Made by a program: the position numbers
Assembly (NCBI GenBank): GCA_951406725.2
Contig: OX597841.1
Span: 20,460,001 to 20,524,000 of the forward strand
DNA from: Octopus vulgaris
Taxonomy: Eukaryota
Reading direction: 5' to 3'
DNA length: 64,000 nt
Shown here: positions 1-33,000 of the stretch, one piece after another
Layout: every line of letters begins with the position of its first letter
How positions within the stretch are numbered: position 1 is the stretch's first letter

Positions 1-3000
1 TACTAAATGTCCGAGTACATGATATGAACACTATATTTCAAAGTACATAATTTGGATCTTCGCATGTGGATGCATAGCATATTAGGAACAATAGATCTGC
101 ATGCCATAGGTTAGCTGGATATAAGTTGACCATGGGCTAAACTACAACAAATACACAAGTAGTATGAACAGTTGAGATAGTATTTATTCCATTTAATAAA
201 CCGCTCTGGGTTAGAGTATGCAATAGTTTATTTAGAAAAGTGTATTTGCATGATGAACCTCATGATTGTCTAATCATGAGAGAGAGAGAGAGAGAGAGAG
301 AGAGAGAGAGAGAGAGAGAGAGAGAGAGAGAGAGAGAATGAGAGAGTGTGAGAGTGCAGAGAGAACAAGGGTAAGAGAGAGATGGTGGCAATGTGCCAGA
401 GCATACTCTAAAGGTATAGGGATGAGAATATAAATGGGATGGTAGTGGTAAAGTATATGCCGAGGGTGAACAGGGAGAGAGTTCATGTGAATGCAAAGAG
501 GGTGAAATCTGGGTATATAGAGGAGCAGGGTAGAACAGGATTGCAATGATGCAGTGAGGACCAGTAACACTTATGTGCCATAAGCTTGCTTGGTCAGAGC
601 TACACTGGTGCTATTAAGACAATAAATAACAGGAACAAGAACTAACCGTTGCACAATTCTGCTTCTGCATTCTCCGTAAGGCATATCCAGCCATCAGCAA
701 CAGAAGGGGGAACAAGAAAACGGCAAGGCGTATCGGTAAGGCACCTGAAAAATAGACATAAGAACAGGGAAAGCACAATGCAAAGATGGTTTCAATTATC
801 ACTATTATTTTATGCCCCTTCTTCACTATTGGGTGGGGGACGATGCAATGACATCAGGTGCAATGCACAGTGCAGGAAGCCTCATTGGGTGATGTAACAT
901 GCTTCAAAAGTTATAAGATTTACATTCTTTGTATTTTTTTTTTCTTATCACTCACTTCCTGATCACAAATTTCCTCACTTCACACACATTGTGTGAACTA
1001 CTAGCAACACATCACCAGCATCTGACTTGGAACAAAAGTGAAATGTAAAGCTTATAACTTTTGAAGCATGTTATGTCACCTTAAGCTATGTATGGTGCTT
1101 AAGGTGACATGGAGGAAGAAACCCCATACATAATTAAATGTATGCTCCTTGAACAACCAAGGGTTATATATATATGGTCCACTTCGAATAAAATTAAATC
1201 TAGAGTATCTCAACATATGTATTCTTTTAGGAAAAAAATCTAATAAATTCAAGAGGTCTCAGTAAATATATTTGGTTCCGTAGTGTAGTGGTTATCACAC
1301 TTGCTTCACACGCGAGAGGCCCTGGGTTTGATCCCCAGCGGAACCAGTGGTTTAATAGGCACAGGAGTGGCTGTGAGGTAAGTAGCTTGTTTACCAACCA
1401 CATGGTTCCGGGTTCAGTCCCACTGCGTGGCACCTTGGGCAAGTGTCTTCTACTATAGCCCCGGGCCGACCAAAGCCTTGTGAGTGGATTTGGTAGACGG
1501 AAACTGAAAAGAAGCCTGTCGTATATATGTATATATATATATATATACATGCGTGTGTGTGTTTGTGTGTCTGTGTTTGTCCCCTTAGCATTGCTTGACA
1601 ACCGATGCTGGTGTGTTTATGTCCCCGTTACTTAGCGGTTTGGCAAAAGAGACCGATAGAATAAGTACTGAGCTTACAAAGGAATAAGTCCCGGGGTCGA
1701 GTTGCTCGATTAAAAGGCAATGCTCCAGCATGGCCGCAGTCAAATGACTGAAACAAGTAAAAGAGTAAAAGAGTAAAGAGAGATCTATTAAATATAAATT
1801 AACTTGGGGGGGTTATTTGTAGGGCTAAATCATATTGTATAGGGAGTAATTATTGTTCACTGTGTAATAATGAATTTAAAGAAATATTATTTAATAACAA
1901 TTATGGTGTTGGTAAACTCATTGGAGGAACGTAAAATTAAACGTAAACATAAATTAAATTACCTATATAATAGGTGTAGCTAATAAATAAATGATTATAT
2001 AAATATATTAGGATATATTAATTATAGTAATATGAATTAATTTAAATATTATATATTTATTTTACTTATTTATTATTTAGACTTTAAATTTATAGTAAAT
2101 AGTCATTTAAAATTAAATGCTAACATAAATTTATTTACCTATATAATACGTTTAACTTATTTTTCAGTATGTATAAAACATTATTTCGTTTTATGTTATT
2201 TATTTCTTGTAGAAATAATTTAATAGTGTTAGAGTATCATTTACTATATTATTATATATTATATTAATATATTTGAACAATATTAAACTTAAATATTTCT
2301 TAATACATAAATGATTATATATAATTTTATTAAGACCTATTAGTTATAGTAATAGAAATTAATTTAATATTATATTTTACGTAATAATTATTTGGAATTA
2401 AATTTATAGTCATTTGTTATTCTATTTTCCTTATTTTTCTTTAATTCATGAAGTTTAAATACTTTTCATCTTTTTCATTAATAAATAGTTTTCGTCATTT
2501 TCATTAATAATTTTATTCTATTTGATCAAACAACGTCTTCACGAGTTTAATTTCTTATAAACGCTAAGACCTATTTTTTTTACATTTAAAATTCAGTTAT
2601 ATAATTTTCATCGACAAGCTAAGTAATGTTTTTTGGTTATCAATATTATTTGGCTTTTGAATTGTAATGGGTTTGATTATTATTATTATTATTGTTGTTG
2701 TTGTTGTTATTATTATTATTATTGTTGTTGAAATATTATTATTTTTATATATAGTTTCTTGATAGTTATTAGTTATGATATCCATTTATTTAATATGCTT
2801 TATTATTATTTTTTTATAAAGGGATTTAATGTAATATATATAATTTAATTTGAGAATTAGTTTTGTTAGACAATACATTATTTAATAATTAGGTGGTCTA
2901 TTTATTACGTAGTATTACATTTAAGTAAATTAGTTTTATATTAATTGATATTTTGGTCAACTATATTATTGAGGGAAATATTAAATCTATAGATACTACA

Positions 3001-30000: not shown

Positions 30001-33000
30001 GCAGTTGCTGTTGTTGTTACTCTTGTTCTTGATGACAGCACCGATGCTGTTGCCATGGCTAGGACTGCTCCGACTGATAAGAATGCTAGGAATGCTGGGA
30101 TTGCTGTAATTGTTATGGCTATGAATGCTGGGATTGCGGTGACCGCTTGGAATGCTGGGAATGCCATAATCGTTGTTGAGACTGCTACATTTGCCCTGGC
30201 TTCTAGGAATGATGGGACTACTCCCATCGCTGGGAATGCTGGGATTGCCAAGGCCACTAGGAATTCTGGGATTTCCTTGATTGCTTTGGCTGGTCTCAGA
30301 GGAGTTTGGTTTGGTGTAGAAACATTTATAGTTGTATGGACATTCCTCCAGCTTCTTCACGATGCTCTCAATCCATGCAATATCGTTGGGGCTGTGTGAA
30401 AAGAAAATATGGTAACGGTATAGGTCCTGCAGGGGAGGGGCCGGAAAGAAGGAGTCCATGTTGAAGCAGGCATCAGTAGATGTTGTTGCACCACTTTCCA
30501 TCTTGTTGCCATCACCATCACCATCATCATCATCATCATTATTATTGAGCGAGATGGAACAGTCAATGGGGCTGTATGTAGTTGTTGGTTCGATTGGAAT
30601 GTGAGGGGTGTCCTCCTCGTTGCTGGCTGTGTCACTCTGTCCATCTTCAGGGATCAAGTTCTGGTGATCTGTGGAGGAAAGAAAGAAAATAATGAAGAGA
30701 AACAAGATGAAATGAAAAAGAAGAAGAGGAACAACAGCAACAAGATAACAATAATGATAAGTTAAGGCTATGCTGGAGCAGCGCTTTCTGTGACAATGAA
30801 GATGATAATGATTGTGGTTGTGTCATTAATGATTGATGATAGTGGCAGTGGTGATAGTCATTGGGGTTTGTGGAGGTGGGGGTAGTCATGGTGGTCATAA
30901 TGGTGCTGACAATGCTTAAGATGGTCACAATGGTTATTGTGATAGCAGTGGTGATACAGTATTAAGGATGATACATGGTGATGTACATGGTGTGGATGCG
31001 TGGTAAGAAGTTTGTTTCCAGACCACATAGTTCTGGGTTCAATCCCACAACATAGTCTTCTATTATACCCTCAGGCCAACCAAAACCTTTTGAGGGGATT
31101 TGGTAAATGGAAACAAAAAGACAGCCATTGTATATGTGTGTGTGTGTGTGTGTGTCTCCCACTACAGCTTGACAACAAGTGCTAGTGTGTTTATGTCCCC
31201 ATGACTTAGCAGTTTGGTAAAGAGACTGATAAAATAAGTACCAAGCTTAACAAAACATAAGTACTGGGGTTGATTCATCTGACTAAAAATTATTCATGGC
31301 CATGCCCCAGTATGGCCACAGTCTAATGATTGAAACAAATAAAAGATAATATATATATATATATATATATATATATATATATATATATATATACAATTCA
31401 TAAATGAGGGCAAAGGAAAAAATTTCTAATGCCAAATATGCCGAAAAATTGGACATATTGTCCATTAACCATATAATTTTTCTCCCAGTACGCACGCTAC
31501 TCGAAAAAAGGTTGACAGAAATTTCTAAAAAATTCCATTATTACCATATCGAACCGATTTCAGAGTTAGCTACTAAGAACCCTCCCTTCGTCAGTGATAC
31601 ATGTGGCAAAAGAAATAAATGAGATACTTACCCATGGAAGAAGCAAATACTAAGTCATGGGCACAACTAAGTACCCCAAATACATCCAAAATAGAAATAC
31701 TCCAGCCCATTCGAGGCACGTGCGATTTGAACTGAGTCTCTCACAGAGTGAGTTAGTTAGTTCGGAAGTGAACGCTTAAATTTATATCAAATGTGAGGAT
31801 AAAATTCTTTTCGAAAAAAAATATTTTCTCGAAAAAATTTTATCAATGGCCAGCATATTAAAAAATACCTTTAAAGGTTAAATTTATAAACAATTCATAA
31901 ATGAGGGCAAAGGAAATGCATATTTGGCATTAGAATTTTTTTCCTTTGCCCTCATTTATGAATTGTTTATAAATTTAACCGTTAAAGGTATTTTTTAATA
32001 TGCTGGCCATATATATACTAGATGTCTTAAAATTAAGGCAACCAAAATTTTGGACTTTAGTAACTATCAATAAATGTGATAAGATATGAAAATTATACAT
32101 CATTATAAAAGCTTAGTGTCTTCCTTTTTGTTTAAGACTAAATAAATTCAGACTTATAAATTAGATAATGGCTTTCCACTGAAATACAATCATGACCCTC
32201 CACAAAAGAGGTAAAAGTAATACAATTATAGCAAAAAATTTTAAAATTAACCAAATAACAGTCTGGAAAATTGTCAAGAAATTTCAAGAGACTGGTTCTA
32301 TTGCTGATCAATCTAGACATGGCCAAGGAGGAAGTGTACAGACCCCTCAGCCTATCAAAAGTACCAGAGAAAAGGTATGGTGAAATCCTTGTTGTTCCGT
32401 AATTAAACTGGCTGCCATAGCAAAAATAAGCTGAACATCAATGTATTGAATGCTGAAGGAGGATCTCAGGACCCACCTCTACAAGATGGTTTGTTGTCAT
32501 GAGATCATGCAAGAGACTGGAGAGAAGCCATCTTTTATCCTGTATCAGATTGCTGAAGGCACACTGCCCAACCTGGTGTTCACTGATGAAAAGACATTTG
32601 ACATCGAACAAATAGTAAATCACTAGAATGACCAATTTTGGAGTGTATCTGGCTCTGTCAAGGGTAGACCCGTAAATCAACATCAAAATCCACAGTCAGT
32701 TATGGTTTGGGTGACTGTGACTGGAAGATCTCCCCTTGTTTTTGTACCCTTGGGTGTTAAAATTGACCCAGCGATACATTAGTGACATTCTGGGAGCTGA
32801 ACTGCTTCCATGGATGGATGAGCACTTTCAAGGCCCACCTTGGAGACTCCAACACGGTTCTGCACCATCCCACAGCATGAAACAGACACAACACTGGATT
32901 CATGAAAACATTCCATCATTCATAGACAAGGATGTGTGGCCCTGAAGAAGCCCCAATCTTAACTCATTGGATTTTTGGTCCATTTTGGAGATGAGGGTCT

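What the first reader, a model, noticed from the sequence alone, without database searches (positions are those of the whole stretch)
647..30668. Candidate TIR + TMEM268/DUF4481-like fusion: a membrane-anchored TIR protein spread over 30 kb of repeat-filled introns
Seen in sequence: five minus-strand GT-AG exons with chained phases (1-1, 1-1, 1-0, 0-1, 1-0) give one open frame of 1640 nt, across introns of 15225, 3544, 3957 and 5656 nt. The order is TIR domain, Ser-rich linker, then LSNGQLI...LVFD...LSCHGINVSHNEF...IVNDAEI...KP-TM1-TM2-RRMQKQN. From memory, vertebrate TMEM268 (DUF4481) has the colinear pattern LHNGQVL...ISFD...LQTWGIQVPADQY...LLEPQV...RP-TM1-TM2-ERHQKKAN and no TIR domain. Inference: an N-terminal cytosolic TIR tethered by a TM hairpin with a very short loop and no ectodomain. 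This differs from TLRs, MyD88, SARM1 and molluscan TIR-STING, and suggests an uncharacterised innate-immune adaptor or effector.
Basis: partly seen in the sequence, partly recalled or inferred. Interest (0 to 1): 0.88.

Follow-up and report, generated by a model that had tools for sequence, protein, structure and literature searches.

The report
Octopus membrane-anchored TIR–TMEM268-like fusion gene
Five exons scattered through 30 kb of transposon-filled octopus DNA belong to a real, conserved mollusc gene that joins a Toll-receptor-type TIR signalling domain to a distant relative of the membrane protein TMEM268; nobody has studied its function.

Summary
Five minus-strand exons (30668-29493, 14267-14202, 10657-10536, 6578-6401, 744-647; 1640 nt) have canonical splice sites and chained phases. 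Their translations sit side by side, in this order, in predicted NCBI proteins of Octopus sinensis (722 aa) and O. bimaculoides (711 aa), both misnamed.

Exon 1 passes Pfam TIR_2 (37.2 bits, cut-off 28). The TIR is most like TLR1/2/6/10 and MyD88, not SARM1.

The TMEM268/DUF4481 link fails the direct Pfam test: there is no hit for any exon or for the full octopus proteins. It holds indirectly:
- Ten non-octopod homologues were scanned; three reach the DUF4481 cut-off (79.2, 26.5 and 25.0 bits).
- hhalign of the octopod profile against the 79-bit homologue gives 96% probability, E 4.3e-9.
- All of the top three protein-atlas look-alike clusters are DUF4481.

Two hydrophobic helices flank a 9-residue loop, and there is no signal peptide or ectodomain. 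TIR and tail should therefore both face the cytosol.

The gene runs off both ends of the window. In Octopus a 190-residue low-complexity insert fills the TIR BB-loop.

Function is inferred only: most likely a receptor-less membrane TIR scaffold or regulator. I rate it a new variant of a known kind, of moderate interest.

The parts
29493..30668 (-). Exon E1 (1176 nt, phase 1 to 1). It encodes an acidic N-terminal stretch and the whole TIR domain, which is split by a long insert.
   Evidence: Splice sites read. Translation. Pfam TIR_2 37.2 bits, E 4.8e-9. Hit by the non-octopod profile at E 2.4e-54.
30316..30423 (-). N-terminal half of the TIR: beta-A (LYRYHIFFSH), alpha-A, and beta-B (YKCFY).
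   Evidence: Coordinates. Conserved Y115, H116, F118, D125, W128, P140, Y141 (P0008 numbering). Aligned to the same elements of TLR TIR domains.
29746..30315 (-). A 190-residue low-complexity insert at the BB-loop position, rich in Ser, Asn, Gly, Ile and Pro and carrying repeated NPSIPS-like motifs.
   Evidence: composition and coordinates; the loop is 190 residues in the Octopus protein against 11-14 in 9 other members. It is open in frame and retained with changes in O. bimaculoides.
29494..29745 (-). C-terminal half of the TIR, from alpha-B to alpha-E (IQSTLCAAMLSERVVIALS...LEDCEVPEPL...TLTRLLRS).
   Evidence: Best Pfam TIR_2 stretch covers residues 318-388 of the exon protein. This half alone drew 32 of the 50 phmmer hits.
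14202..14267 (-). Exon E2 (66 nt, phase 1 to 1): a Ser-rich linker, CLPRSSESISSDLSSVLSTRA.
   Evidence: Exact substring of P0008, P0007 and P0006. The LPRSS-[ED]-S-x-SS pattern recurs in non-octopod homologues (S427 and S433 conserved in 9 of 10). Not significant alone in the profile scan, E 2.4.
10536..10657 (-). Exon E3 (122 nt, phase 1 to 0): start of the DUF4481-like module (LSNGQLI...WKATLVFDYDGTVPTPLSCHGIN).
   Evidence: Non-octopod profile E 5.4e-10. N447, G448 and P475 conserved. No direct Pfam DUF4481 hit.
6401..6578 (-). Exon E4 (178 nt, phase 0 to 1): a juxtamembrane helix and TM1 (TM1 at 6485-6417, VVIIFILSIIWIVSFLLVIFLLI), then the start of the loop (DAPKS).
   Evidence: Non-octopod profile E 1.4e-8. 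Hydropathy peak 3.31. 100% identical in P0006, P0007 and P0008.
647..744 (-). Exon E5 (98 nt, phase 1 to 0): end of the loop, TM2 (733-677, IRLAVFLFPLLLLMAGYAL) and the basic RRMQKQN stretch. A donor at 647/646 shows that the gene continues beyond the window start.
   Evidence: Non-octopod profile E 4.6e-6. Conserved L546, R549, L550, V552, F553, P556, G563. The database proteins continue for about 145 aa after ...NCAT.

Best explanation
The five exons are an internal part of a real protein-coding gene of an Octopus of the sinensis/vulgaris type. The gene is longer than the window.

Its product has five parts in order:
- a short N-terminus without a signal peptide;
- a Toll-like-receptor-type TIR domain;
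- a conserved Ser-rich linker;
- a divergent DUF4481 (TMEM268-like) module, in which a roughly 70-residue pre-membrane segment leads into two transmembrane helices joined by a 9-residue loop;
- a cytosolic alpha/beta tail of about 150-190 residues, encoded outside the window.

Shown: the exon structure, the TIR, the fusion and its conservation in other, at least partly molluscan, species, and the homology of the tail module to DUF4481.

Inferred: the topology is N-in/C-in, so that the TIR and both soluble parts of the DUF4481 module face the cytosol and almost nothing is exposed outside.

Inferred, with less certainty: the protein acts as a receptor-less, membrane-resident TIR scaffold or regulator. 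The DUF4481 hairpin would fix a TLR-like TIR at a particular membrane or receptor complex. In mammals TMEM268 binds and stabilises integrins. There the TIR would engage, or hold back, the TIR domains of TLRs or MyD88-type adaptors rather than cleave NAD+. The Octopus-specific 190-residue disordered insert sits in the BB-loop, a main TIR-TIR contact surface. It probably changes or gates that contact.
For: Gene structure.
- Canonical splice sites and phases.
- Exact colinear match to the NCBI models P0008 and P0007.
- P0006, a 198-aa fragment, is spliced across E1-E4.
- The related 563-aa protein P0010 was seen on contigs of at most 2798 nt. These are too short to hold such introns, so they are presumably transcripts; this is my inference.
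- The non-octopod profile picks out E1, E3, E4 and E5 from 2651 ORF segments.

TIR.
- TIR_2 scores 37.2 bits on E1.
- The AF2 model of P0010 (pLDDT 72.4) matches MyD88, MAL, TLR1/10/6 and Hydra TRR-2 TIRs with TM-score (target) 0.54-0.78.
- The family profile hits TLR15, 10, 1, 2 and 6 TIR sequences at E 3e-12 to 7e-11 and MyD88 at about 1e-6. SARM1 is absent at E<=1.

DUF4481.
- Among 10 non-octopod homologues, 6 show DUF4481: 79.2, 26.5, 25.0, 23.5, 19.3 and 16.2 bits, against a cut-off of 25.
- 7 of 53 family members hit at E<=0.01.
- hhalign gives 96% probability and E 4.3e-9.
- Atlas look-alikes are DUF4481 clusters.
- The layout matches human TMEM268 as described in passages of PMC6748091: DUF4481 at residues 38-328, TM helices at 104-126 and 130-152.

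Topology.
- Only two hydrophobic segments and no N-terminal one.
- RRMQKQ follows TM2 and K514 precedes TM1.
- AF2 places two long helices at these positions.

Scaffold rather than enzyme.
- The position aligned with the Glu of the TLR 'W-x-x-x-E' helix is Gln in all three octopod sequences. Across the family it is Q in 6 of 12, E in 4 of 12, R in 1 and D in 1.
- That this Glu is the catalytic residue of SARM1 and plant TIRs is my recollection, not a call.

Immune context. The abstract of PMC11169502 reports that Tmem268-knockout mice clear bacteria poorly because CD11b is degraded.
Against: - No direct Pfam DUF4481 hit for the octopus sequence itself. The link is transitive.
- The BB-loop 'RDxxPG'-type box used by signalling TLRs is absent. 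Only 2 of 10 members with the loop keep 'RDF', and in Octopus the loop is replaced by 190 disordered residues. This could mean a non-signalling or decoy TIR.
- A Glu lies one residue after the expected catalytic position (E369), and four homologues keep the Glu itself, so enzymatic activity in the family is not excluded.
- There are no expression data, no localisation and no partner. The integrin link comes from mammals only.
- No solved structure resembles the DUF4481 module: 0 Foldseek matches at E<=0.001. Its fold gives no functional hint.
Confidence: 0.6

Rival explanations
1. The protein mainly does what mammalian TMEM268 does. It would be a membrane chaperone or stabiliser of adhesion receptors such as integrins, working in adhesion, migration or development. 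The TIR would serve only as an extra protein-binding or oligomerising module with no role in pathogen signalling.
For: The larger and best-conserved part is the DUF4481 module. Mammalian TMEM268 binds ITGB4 and CD11b through its region after residue 104 (passages of PMC6748091; abstract of PMC11169502). The canonical BB-loop box is missing.
Against: The TIR is conserved across all full-length homologues: TIR_2 exceeds its cut-off in 8 of 10. It is closest to receptor and adaptor TIRs of the TLR pathway. In mice the TMEM268 phenotype is itself immune.
Confidence: 0.22
2. It is a membrane-anchored enzymatic TIR, an NAD+-consuming effector like SARM1 or the prokaryotic and plant TIRs. Clustering in the membrane would trigger it.
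For: The fold is TIR. Four of 12 family members carry Glu at the aligned helix position, and the octopods have Glu one residue later. The molluscan TIR-STING protein also appears among the structural neighbours (ranks 15 and 19).
Against: The aligned position is Gln in the three octopod proteins. SARM1 is not found at E<=1, and AbTIR only at E 0.17, against 3e-12 for TLR TIRs. The top 14 Foldseek hits are scaffold-type TIRs.
Confidence: 0.1
3. The C-terminal module is not a TMEM268 relative. It would be an unrelated two-helix membrane anchor that merely resembles one.
For: Pfam DUF4481 gives no hit for the exons or for the full octopus proteins. The word-based search found no stand-alone short relatives: 1 hit, a fragment of the same gene, among 651 candidates. 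The atlas score of 0.88 is below the 0.9 mark that the tool treats as more than a lead.
Against: phmmer links the Argonauta orthologue to P0046 at E 2.4e-5 in a library of 1.84 billion proteins, over residues 4-364. P0046 scores 79.2 bits on DUF4481. hhalign gives 96% probability. The matches extend well outside the TM helices, covering the pre-TM segment and the RH...CLCQ..E tail.
Confidence: 0.05
4. The model is an annotation artefact. The TIR exon and the TM exons would belong to two neighbouring genes that are never spliced together.
For: A 15.2-kb first intron. The NCBI models are predictions with nonsense names. I could not examine any RNA-seq.
Against: The same fusion occurs in seven full-length non-octopod homologues and in Argonauta. 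P0006 is a spliced fragment spanning E1-E4. The phases chain perfectly, and the junction residues N, N and S match the records.
Confidence: 0.03

Closest known systems
TMEM268 (C9orf91), Pfam DUF4481 / PF14800
   Same: The layout is colinear: a pre-membrane segment of about 65-70 residues, two adjacent TM helices with a very short loop, and a cytosolic tail of about 190 residues. Human TMEM268 has DUF4481 at 38-328 and TM helices at 104-126 and 130-152 (passages of PMC6748091). Homology is supported through intermediates and by the atlas.
   Different: Canonical TMEM268 is 271-343 aa with no other domain. Here a TIR and a Ser-rich linker precede the module. The octopus sequence is too diverged to pass the Pfam model itself. 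The mollusc subfamily has its own conserved D...ALP(I/V)RL-VF-FP motif in the loop and TM2, which is missing in the most TMEM268-like homologue P0046.
Toll-like receptors (TLR1/2/6/10 group), TIR domain
   Same: These are the best sequence matches for the family's TIR, E 3e-12 to 7e-11, and they share the fold. Both are membrane-bound with a cytosolic TIR.
   Different: There are no LRR ectodomain, no signal peptide and no single-pass TM. The TIR is N-terminal to the membrane anchor, not C-terminal. The BB-loop box is absent or replaced.
MyD88, MAL/TIRAP and TRAM (TIR adaptors)
   Same: These are scaffold-type TIRs without an ectodomain. MyD88 and MAL TIR filaments are the top structural matches. 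From general knowledge, MAL and TRAM are also held at membranes, by lipid binding or myristoylation.
   Different: There is no death domain. The protein is anchored by an integral two-helix hairpin that is part of a conserved DUF4481 module, not by a lipid-binding motif.
Molluscan TIR-STING and SARM1
   Same: Both are TIR domains fused to another signalling module in invertebrates. TIR-STING of C. gigas appears among the neighbours (ranks 15 and 19, E 1.1e-7).
   Different: Pfam shows no STING, ARM or SAM domains. SARM1 is not retrieved at E<=1. The aligned catalytic-Glu position is Gln.
'ecTIR-DC' families of invertebrate TIR proteins (Gerdol et al. 2017, Dev Comp Immunol)
   Same: This is a catalogue of conserved, uncharacterised TIR-domain proteins of bivalves and other invertebrates. 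It is cited in passages of PMC6321704, PMC5549309 and PMC6836662. The present family may be one of them.
   Different: I could not check this: the paper is not held and supplements are closed. None of the passages I saw mentions a TM-hairpin or DUF4481 architecture.

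Membership tests
TIR domain (Pfam TIR_2, PF13676) | Profile score above the curated cut-off | tested here: met
   E1 alone scores 37.2 bits against a cut-off of 28, E 4.8e-9. The full database proteins score 35.2 and 34.7 bits. 44 of 53 family members match.
TIR domain (Pfam TIR_2, PF13676) | Flavodoxin-like alpha/beta fold superposable on solved TIRs | tested here: met
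   The AF2 model of the insert-free relative P0010 matches MyD88, TLR and TRR-2 TIRs with TM-score (target) 0.54-0.78 and E 1e-4 to 1e-3. This was tested on the relative, not on the window's own protein.
Signalling TLR/MyD88-type TIR | BB-loop box 2 (the 'RDxxPG' type; the motif is recalled) | tested here: not met
   In Octopus the loop is a 190-residue low-complexity insert. It is 11-14 residues in other members, and only P0014 and P0017 keep 'RDF'.
NADase TIR (SARM1, plant and bacterial type) | Catalytic Glu on the helix after the conserved Trp (W+4; the motif is recalled) | tested here: not met
   The position is Gln in P0008, P0009 and P0010. Across 12 members it is E in 4, Q in 6, R in 1 and D in 1. 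SARM1 is absent at E<=1.
TMEM268 / DUF4481 (PF14800) | Profile score above the curated cut-off (25 bits) for the sequence itself | tested here: not met
   No PF14800 hit at E<=10 for E3, E4 or E5, nor for P0008 or P0007. HMMER filters hide most matches above E of about 0.1.
TMEM268 / DUF4481 (PF14800) | Significant homology to proteins that do pass the profile | tested here: met
   P0009 against P0046: phmmer E 2.4e-5, and P0046 scores 79.2 bits on DUF4481. P0009 against P0011: E 3.1e-69, and P0011 scores 26.5 bits. hhalign of A1 against P0046: 96% probability, E 4.3e-9, 336 columns.
TMEM268 / DUF4481 (PF14800) | Two adjacent TM helices with a minimal loop, about 65-70 residues into the domain | tested here: met
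   TM1 lies at about 516-538 and TM2 at about 548-566 of P0008, with a 9-residue loop, and the module starts near residue 444. For human TMEM268 the figures are 38, 104-126 and 130-152.
TMEM268 / DUF4481 (PF14800) | Fold match to the TMEM268 structure | not testable with these tools
   There is no solved TMEM268 structure: 0 PDB matches at E<=0.001 for the module.
TMEM268 / DUF4481 (PF14800) | Binding and stabilisation of integrin subunits | not testable with these tools
   Known only for mammalian TMEM268.
Toll-like receptor | LRR ectodomain, then a single TM helix, then a C-terminal TIR | tested here: not met
   No LRR family appears in the Pfam scans of P0008 and P0007. The TIR precedes the TM helices, and there is no N-terminal hydrophobic segment.
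TIR-STING / SARM1 architectures | A STING domain, or ARM plus SAM domains, beside the TIR | tested here: not met
   None is found in the Pfam scans.

The most novel reading that the evidence does not exclude
The fusion may be a 'Rosetta stone'. On this reading the DUF4481/TMEM268 module is an old partner of TIR signalling: a membrane platform that couples adhesion receptors such as integrins to TLR/MyD88-type TIR assemblies. The fused form is found in molluscs, and also in P0046, a protein of unknown taxon that is much closer to canonical TMEM268 yet still carries a decayed TIR. That form could be ancestral or at least ancient, and vertebrate TMEM268 would be the version that lost the TIR. This would predict that mammalian TMEM268 acts in integrin-TLR crosstalk, and it would explain the sepsis phenotype of knockout mice in a new way. 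In Octopus, the 190-residue BB-loop insert would be a lineage-specific regulatory switch on TIR assembly.
Probability: 0.18. Interest if true: 0.72.

Novelty: new variant of a known kind. Interest (0 to 1): 0.5.

Why it matters
TIR domains are the core wiring of innate immunity, and molluscs carry many uncharacterised TIR proteins.

This one puts a TLR-type TIR on an integral two-helix anchor that belongs to the TMEM268 family. TMEM268 has so far been studied only in human cells and mice, where it stabilises integrins and is needed for antibacterial defence. I found no paper linking TMEM268 or DUF4481 to TIR:
- 'DUF4481' appears in 1 paper.
- 'TMEM268' together with 'TIR' appears in 0 papers.
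- The Gerdol 2017 catalogue could not be read.

The fusion therefore yields a testable hypothesis about TMEM268 function. It also adds a receptor-less, membrane-embedded architecture to the known set of TIR adaptors.

On the practical side, the public names of the two Octopus proteins ('histone-lysine N-methyltransferase, H3 lysine-79 specific' and 'serine/threonine-protein kinase pats1') are artefacts of low-complexity sequence and should be corrected.

Tried and rejected
- Direct Pfam scans of each exon and of the full database proteins gave no DUF4481 hit. Other small hits were below their cut-offs, lie on TM or short segments, and were treated as noise: RNF180_C 23.6 bits, BRI3, Kelch_3, SH3_2 and DUF4199.
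- The word-based search for short stand-alone relatives of the C-module gave 1 hit (a fragment of the same gene) among 651 candidates. The 'near' length search gave 4 hits among 2089 candidates, all octopod-like. This route did not reach canonical TMEM268.
- The phmmer search did not retrieve any obviously canonical TIR-less TMEM268 at E<=0.001. I therefore never had a canonical TMEM268 sequence in hand and could not run a direct profile-profile comparison with that family.
- Foldseek of the two AF2 models against the PDB found only TIR matches. Nothing credible matched the DUF4481 module: 0 matches at E<=0.001, and all of the top 50 are TIRs.
- The profile search of PDB sequences gave only chance TM matches to 5-HT2B chimeras for the module, E 0.1-0.9.
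The taxa of P0012-P0019 and P0046 stay unknown. For P0011, only the atlas hint 'Mollusca' is available.
- The Gerdol et al. 2017 paper is not held, and supplements of the papers I saw are closed. Whether this family already has an 'ecTIR-DC' number is unchecked.
- I looked in the window for the first coding exon and for the 48-aa exon present in P0009 and P0010. Neither was found.
No RNA-seq was available.
- The five exons were never joined. The joined product itself was not searched or folded.

Full report
**1. What is in the sequence**

The window has no N. It is AT-rich and full of repeats.

A script printed their borders:

| Exon | Window coordinates | Length (nt) |
|---|---|---|
| E1 | 30668-29493 | 1176 |
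| E2 | 14267-14202 | 66 |
| E3 | 10657-10536 | 122 |
| E4 | 6578-6401 | 178 |
| E5 | 744-647 | 98 |

- Each exon has a pyrimidine-rich tract ending in AG upstream and GTAAGT, GTGAGT or GTTAGT downstream.
- The lengths sum to 1640 nt. The introns are 15225, 3544, 3957 and 5656 nt, and the phases chain as stated.
- I translated each exon separately (proteins P0001-P0005).
The joined product was neither searched nor folded.

**2. Is it a gene, and are the exons one gene?**

*Database records.* A search with E4 alone (59 aa, 'longer' proteins) returned 3 hits among 13 candidates, all 100% identical:
- a 722-aa NCBI protein of Octopus sinensis (P0008);
- a 711-aa protein of O. bimaculoides (P0007);
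- a 198-aa unnamed fragment (P0006).

The two NCBI names ('histone-lysine N-methyltransferase, H3 lysine-79 specific isoform X2' and 'probable serine/threonine-protein kinase pats1 isoform X2') are plainly low-complexity artefacts. Their only precomputed Pfam domain is TIR_2.

*Match to the window's exons.*
- E2-E5 translations are exact substrings of both records, adjacent to each other.
- They are separated by the single residues N, N, none and S, which the split codons predict.
- E1 differs from P0008 at 2 of 391 columns and from P0007 at 42.
- The window is therefore from O. sinensis or a very close relative.
- P0006 runs uninterrupted from the second half of the TIR through E4.

*Unbiased control.* I built an HMM from 10 non-octopod homologues only and ran it with filters off against all 2651 six-frame ORF segments of at least 15 aa.
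- Four segments were significant, and they are the ones that hold E1 (2.4e-54), E3 (5.4e-10), E4 (1.4e-8) and E5 (4.6e-6), in profile order.
- The ORF with E2 scored E 2.4. The best unrelated segment scored E 0.88.

*Extent of the gene.* It is larger than the finding.
- P0008 residues 1-31 (the last in a split codon) lie upstream of E1. About 145 residues follow E5.
- Neither part is found in the window.
- E1 starts at an acceptor and E5 ends at a donor.

**3. The introns**

Exons make up 5.5% of 647-30668. The introns hold:
- a mariner-type transposase remnant (3294-4046, +);
- a piggyBac-type DDE remnant (12680-13141, -);
- a reverse-transcriptase fragment (26302-26988, +);
- four copies of a roughly 300-nt tRNA-related SINE, one with a tRNA-Val-like fold at 1273-1347.

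'Repeat-filled introns' is correct.

**4. The TIR**

- E1 alone passes Pfam TIR_2: 37.2 bits against a cut-off of 28.
- The domain is split. The beta-A to beta-B part (30423-30316) and the alpha-B to alpha-E part (29745-29494) are separated by 190 residues of Ser/Asn/Gly/Ile/Pro-rich sequence with NPSIPS-like repeats (30315-29746).
- In other family members the same loop is 11-14 residues. This is the BB-loop position.
- The insert is kept in frame, with substitutions and whole-codon indels, in O. bimaculoides. It is absent from the related 563-aa protein P0010.
- An AF2 model of P0010, built on a 13-sequence alignment, has mean pLDDT 72.4. It superposes on MyD88, MAL, TLR1/10/6 and Hydra TRR-2 TIRs with TM-score (target) 0.54-0.78.
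- The family profile finds TLR15, 10, 1, 2 and 6 TIR sequences at E 3e-12 to 7e-11, MyD88 near 1e-6, and AbTIR only at 0.17. SARM1 is not found at E<=1.
- At the helix position aligned with the Glu of the TLR 'W-x-x-x-E' motif, the three octopod proteins have Gln. Across 12 members the residues are E 4, Q 6, R 1 and D 1.
- From memory, that Glu is the catalytic residue of SARM1 and plant TIRs.
- I conclude that this is a TLR-type scaffold-class TIR, and in octopods probably not an NADase.

**5. The C-terminal module**

*Direct tests fail.* There is no PF14800 hit at E<=10 for E3, E4 or E5, nor for P0008 or P0007.

*Indirect tests succeed.*
- (a) The protein atlas, given residues 440-700 of P0008, lists three DUF4481/TMEM268 clusters as its top three. 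The score is 0.88 with 197-201 of 256 shared features.
- (b) I ran an exhaustive phmmer search with the Argonauta hians orthologue P0009. I chose it because it lacks the first half of the TIR. It found 50 proteins at E<=0.001:

| Number | What matched |
|---|---|
| 32 | only the TIR half of the query |
| 7 | full-length proteins of 432-579 aa (P0011-P0017) matching query positions up to 225-373, E 3e-69 to 1e-37 |
| 1 | P0046, 488 aa, E 2.4e-5 over residues 4-364 |
| 2 | partial proteins (P0018, P0019) |
| 6 | fragments matching only the C-module or the tail (P0023, P0044, P0047, P0050, P0052, P0056) |
| 2 | the query itself and P0007 |

- (c) Pfam on ten of these: TIR_2 is above its cut-off in 8 of 10. 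DUF4481 is reported in 6 of 10, at 79.2 (P0046), 26.5 (P0011), 25.0 (P0013), 23.5, 19.3 and 16.2 bits against a cut-off of 25. P0011 and P0013 reach both cut-offs in one chain.
- Across all 53 collected members, DUF4481 hits 7 at E<=0.01.
- (d) hhalign of the four-sequence octopod alignment against P0046 gives 96% probability, E 4.3e-9, 336 aligned columns.
- (e) The layout matches human TMEM268 as described in PMC6748091, of which I saw passages: DUF4481 at 38-328 and TM helices at 104-126 and 130-152. Here the module begins near residue 444 of P0008, TM1 is at about 516-538 and TM2 at about 548-566.

*Structure.* No solved structure resembles the module.

**6. Topology**

- P0008 has only two hydrophobic segments and none at the N-terminus.
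- The loop is DAPKSSALP.
- TM2 is followed by RRMQKQ.
- AF2 models place two long helices at these positions with high confidence.
- The inferred topology is N-in/C-in, with the TIR and both soluble parts of the module in the cytosol.
- The loop and TM2 carry a motif conserved in the fused subfamily: D539, L546, R549, L550, V552, F553, P556 and G563. The motif is absent in P0046.

**7. Distribution and prior knowledge**

*Distribution.*
- The word search reached only octopods: O. sinensis, O. bimaculoides, Argonauta and one unnamed record.
- For P0011 the atlas reports two nearest clusters, both mainly Mollusca. One has 54 members (527 aa, TIR_2 in 98%). The other has 84 members (487 aa, TIR_2 in 99%, DUF4481 in 13%).
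- The architecture is therefore already in the databases as 'hypothetical protein', and Pfam occasionally flags both domains.

*Literature.*
- 'DUF4481' occurs in 1 held paper.
- 'TMEM268' together with 'TIR' occurs in none.
- 'ecTIR-DC' occurs in 3 papers. The passages I read do not describe this architecture.
- The source catalogue (Gerdol et al. 2017) is not held, and supplements are closed.

**8. Mechanism**

*Shown:* a conserved fusion of a TLR-type TIR to a DUF4481 hairpin module.

*Inferred:* cytosolic orientation.

*Proposed:* a receptor-less membrane TIR scaffold or regulator.
- Its DUF4481 part would place it beside particular membrane proteins. In mammals TMEM268 binds ITGB4 and CD11b and protects them from degradation (passages of PMC6748091; abstract of PMC11169502).
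- Its TIR would recruit or sequester TLR/MyD88-type TIRs.
- The missing BB-loop box and the Octopus insert leave open whether it activates or dampens signalling.

*Rivals:* an adhesion-type role with a non-immune TIR; an enzymatic TIR; non-homology of the module; an annotation artefact. They are weighed in the Rival explanations section.

**9. Verdict**

- The gene is real but already predicted, and misnamed, in public annotation.
- The family is unstudied, and the TIR-TMEM268 link appears not to be in print within what I could search.
- I rate it a new variant of a known kind, with interest 0.5.

Noticed in passing
window 1200-1650, 6694-6995, 14765-15057, 25112-25398, 30989-31221, 41658-41782, 43285-43473, 46737-46967, 50183-50265: A tRNA-related SINE of about 300 nt is present in nine copies or fragments of 68-92% identity. 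The copy at 1273-1347 still folds as a tRNA-Val(CAC)-like cloverleaf.
   Followed up: partly
window 3294-4046 (+): A mariner-type transposase remnant (Pfam Transposase_1, 81.4 bits) lies inside intron 4.
   Followed up: partly
window 12680-13141 (-): A piggyBac-type DDE transposase fragment (DDE_Tnp_1_7, 66.9 bits) lies inside intron 2.
   Followed up: partly
window 26302-26988 (+), 43689-45825 (-), 48045-49703 (+): These are non-LTR retrotransposon reverse-transcriptase ORFs (RVT_1, up to 107.5 bits). The first lies in intron 1 and also carries a weak PHD-like match below its cut-off. The 553-aa ORF at 48045-49703 is the most intact.
   Followed up: partly
window 7466-7888 (-): A 141-aa ORF in intron 3 gives a borderline match to GDP dissociation inhibitor: 23.2 bits against a cut-off of 23, E 3e-5. 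It could be a pseudogene scrap or chance.
   Followed up: no
window 41667-42842 and 63124-64000: There are long imperfect microsatellite-like arrays that are open in several frames (translations rich in His/Thr/Tyr/Ile or Cys/Val/Tyr/Met, and Tyr/Ile). Such arrays produce spurious long ORFs.
   Followed up: no
P0009 and P0010, between the residues matching E5 and the next exon (outside the window): Argonauta and the unnamed relative carry an extra 49-residue segment after ...QKQQCA(A/T) (IALGMLHRCV...FIYFDI..CV). The two Octopus 'isoform X2' models lack it, so it is probably an alternatively spliced exon. It contains a Cys present in all 10 members that have the segment.
   Followed up: partly
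P0008 residues 642-654 (outside the window): The tail carries an almost invariant H...C-L-C-Q..E motif: H642 in 11/11, C648 in 10/10, C650 in 10/10, Q651 in 9/10 and E654 in 10/10. This is also the part that most often matches the end of the DUF4481 profile. A metal site is conceivable but was not tested.
   Followed up: no
NCBI records behind P0007 and P0008: The public product names (pats1 kinase; H3K79 methyltransferase) have no support in any domain scan. They seem to come from low-complexity matches.
   Followed up: yes
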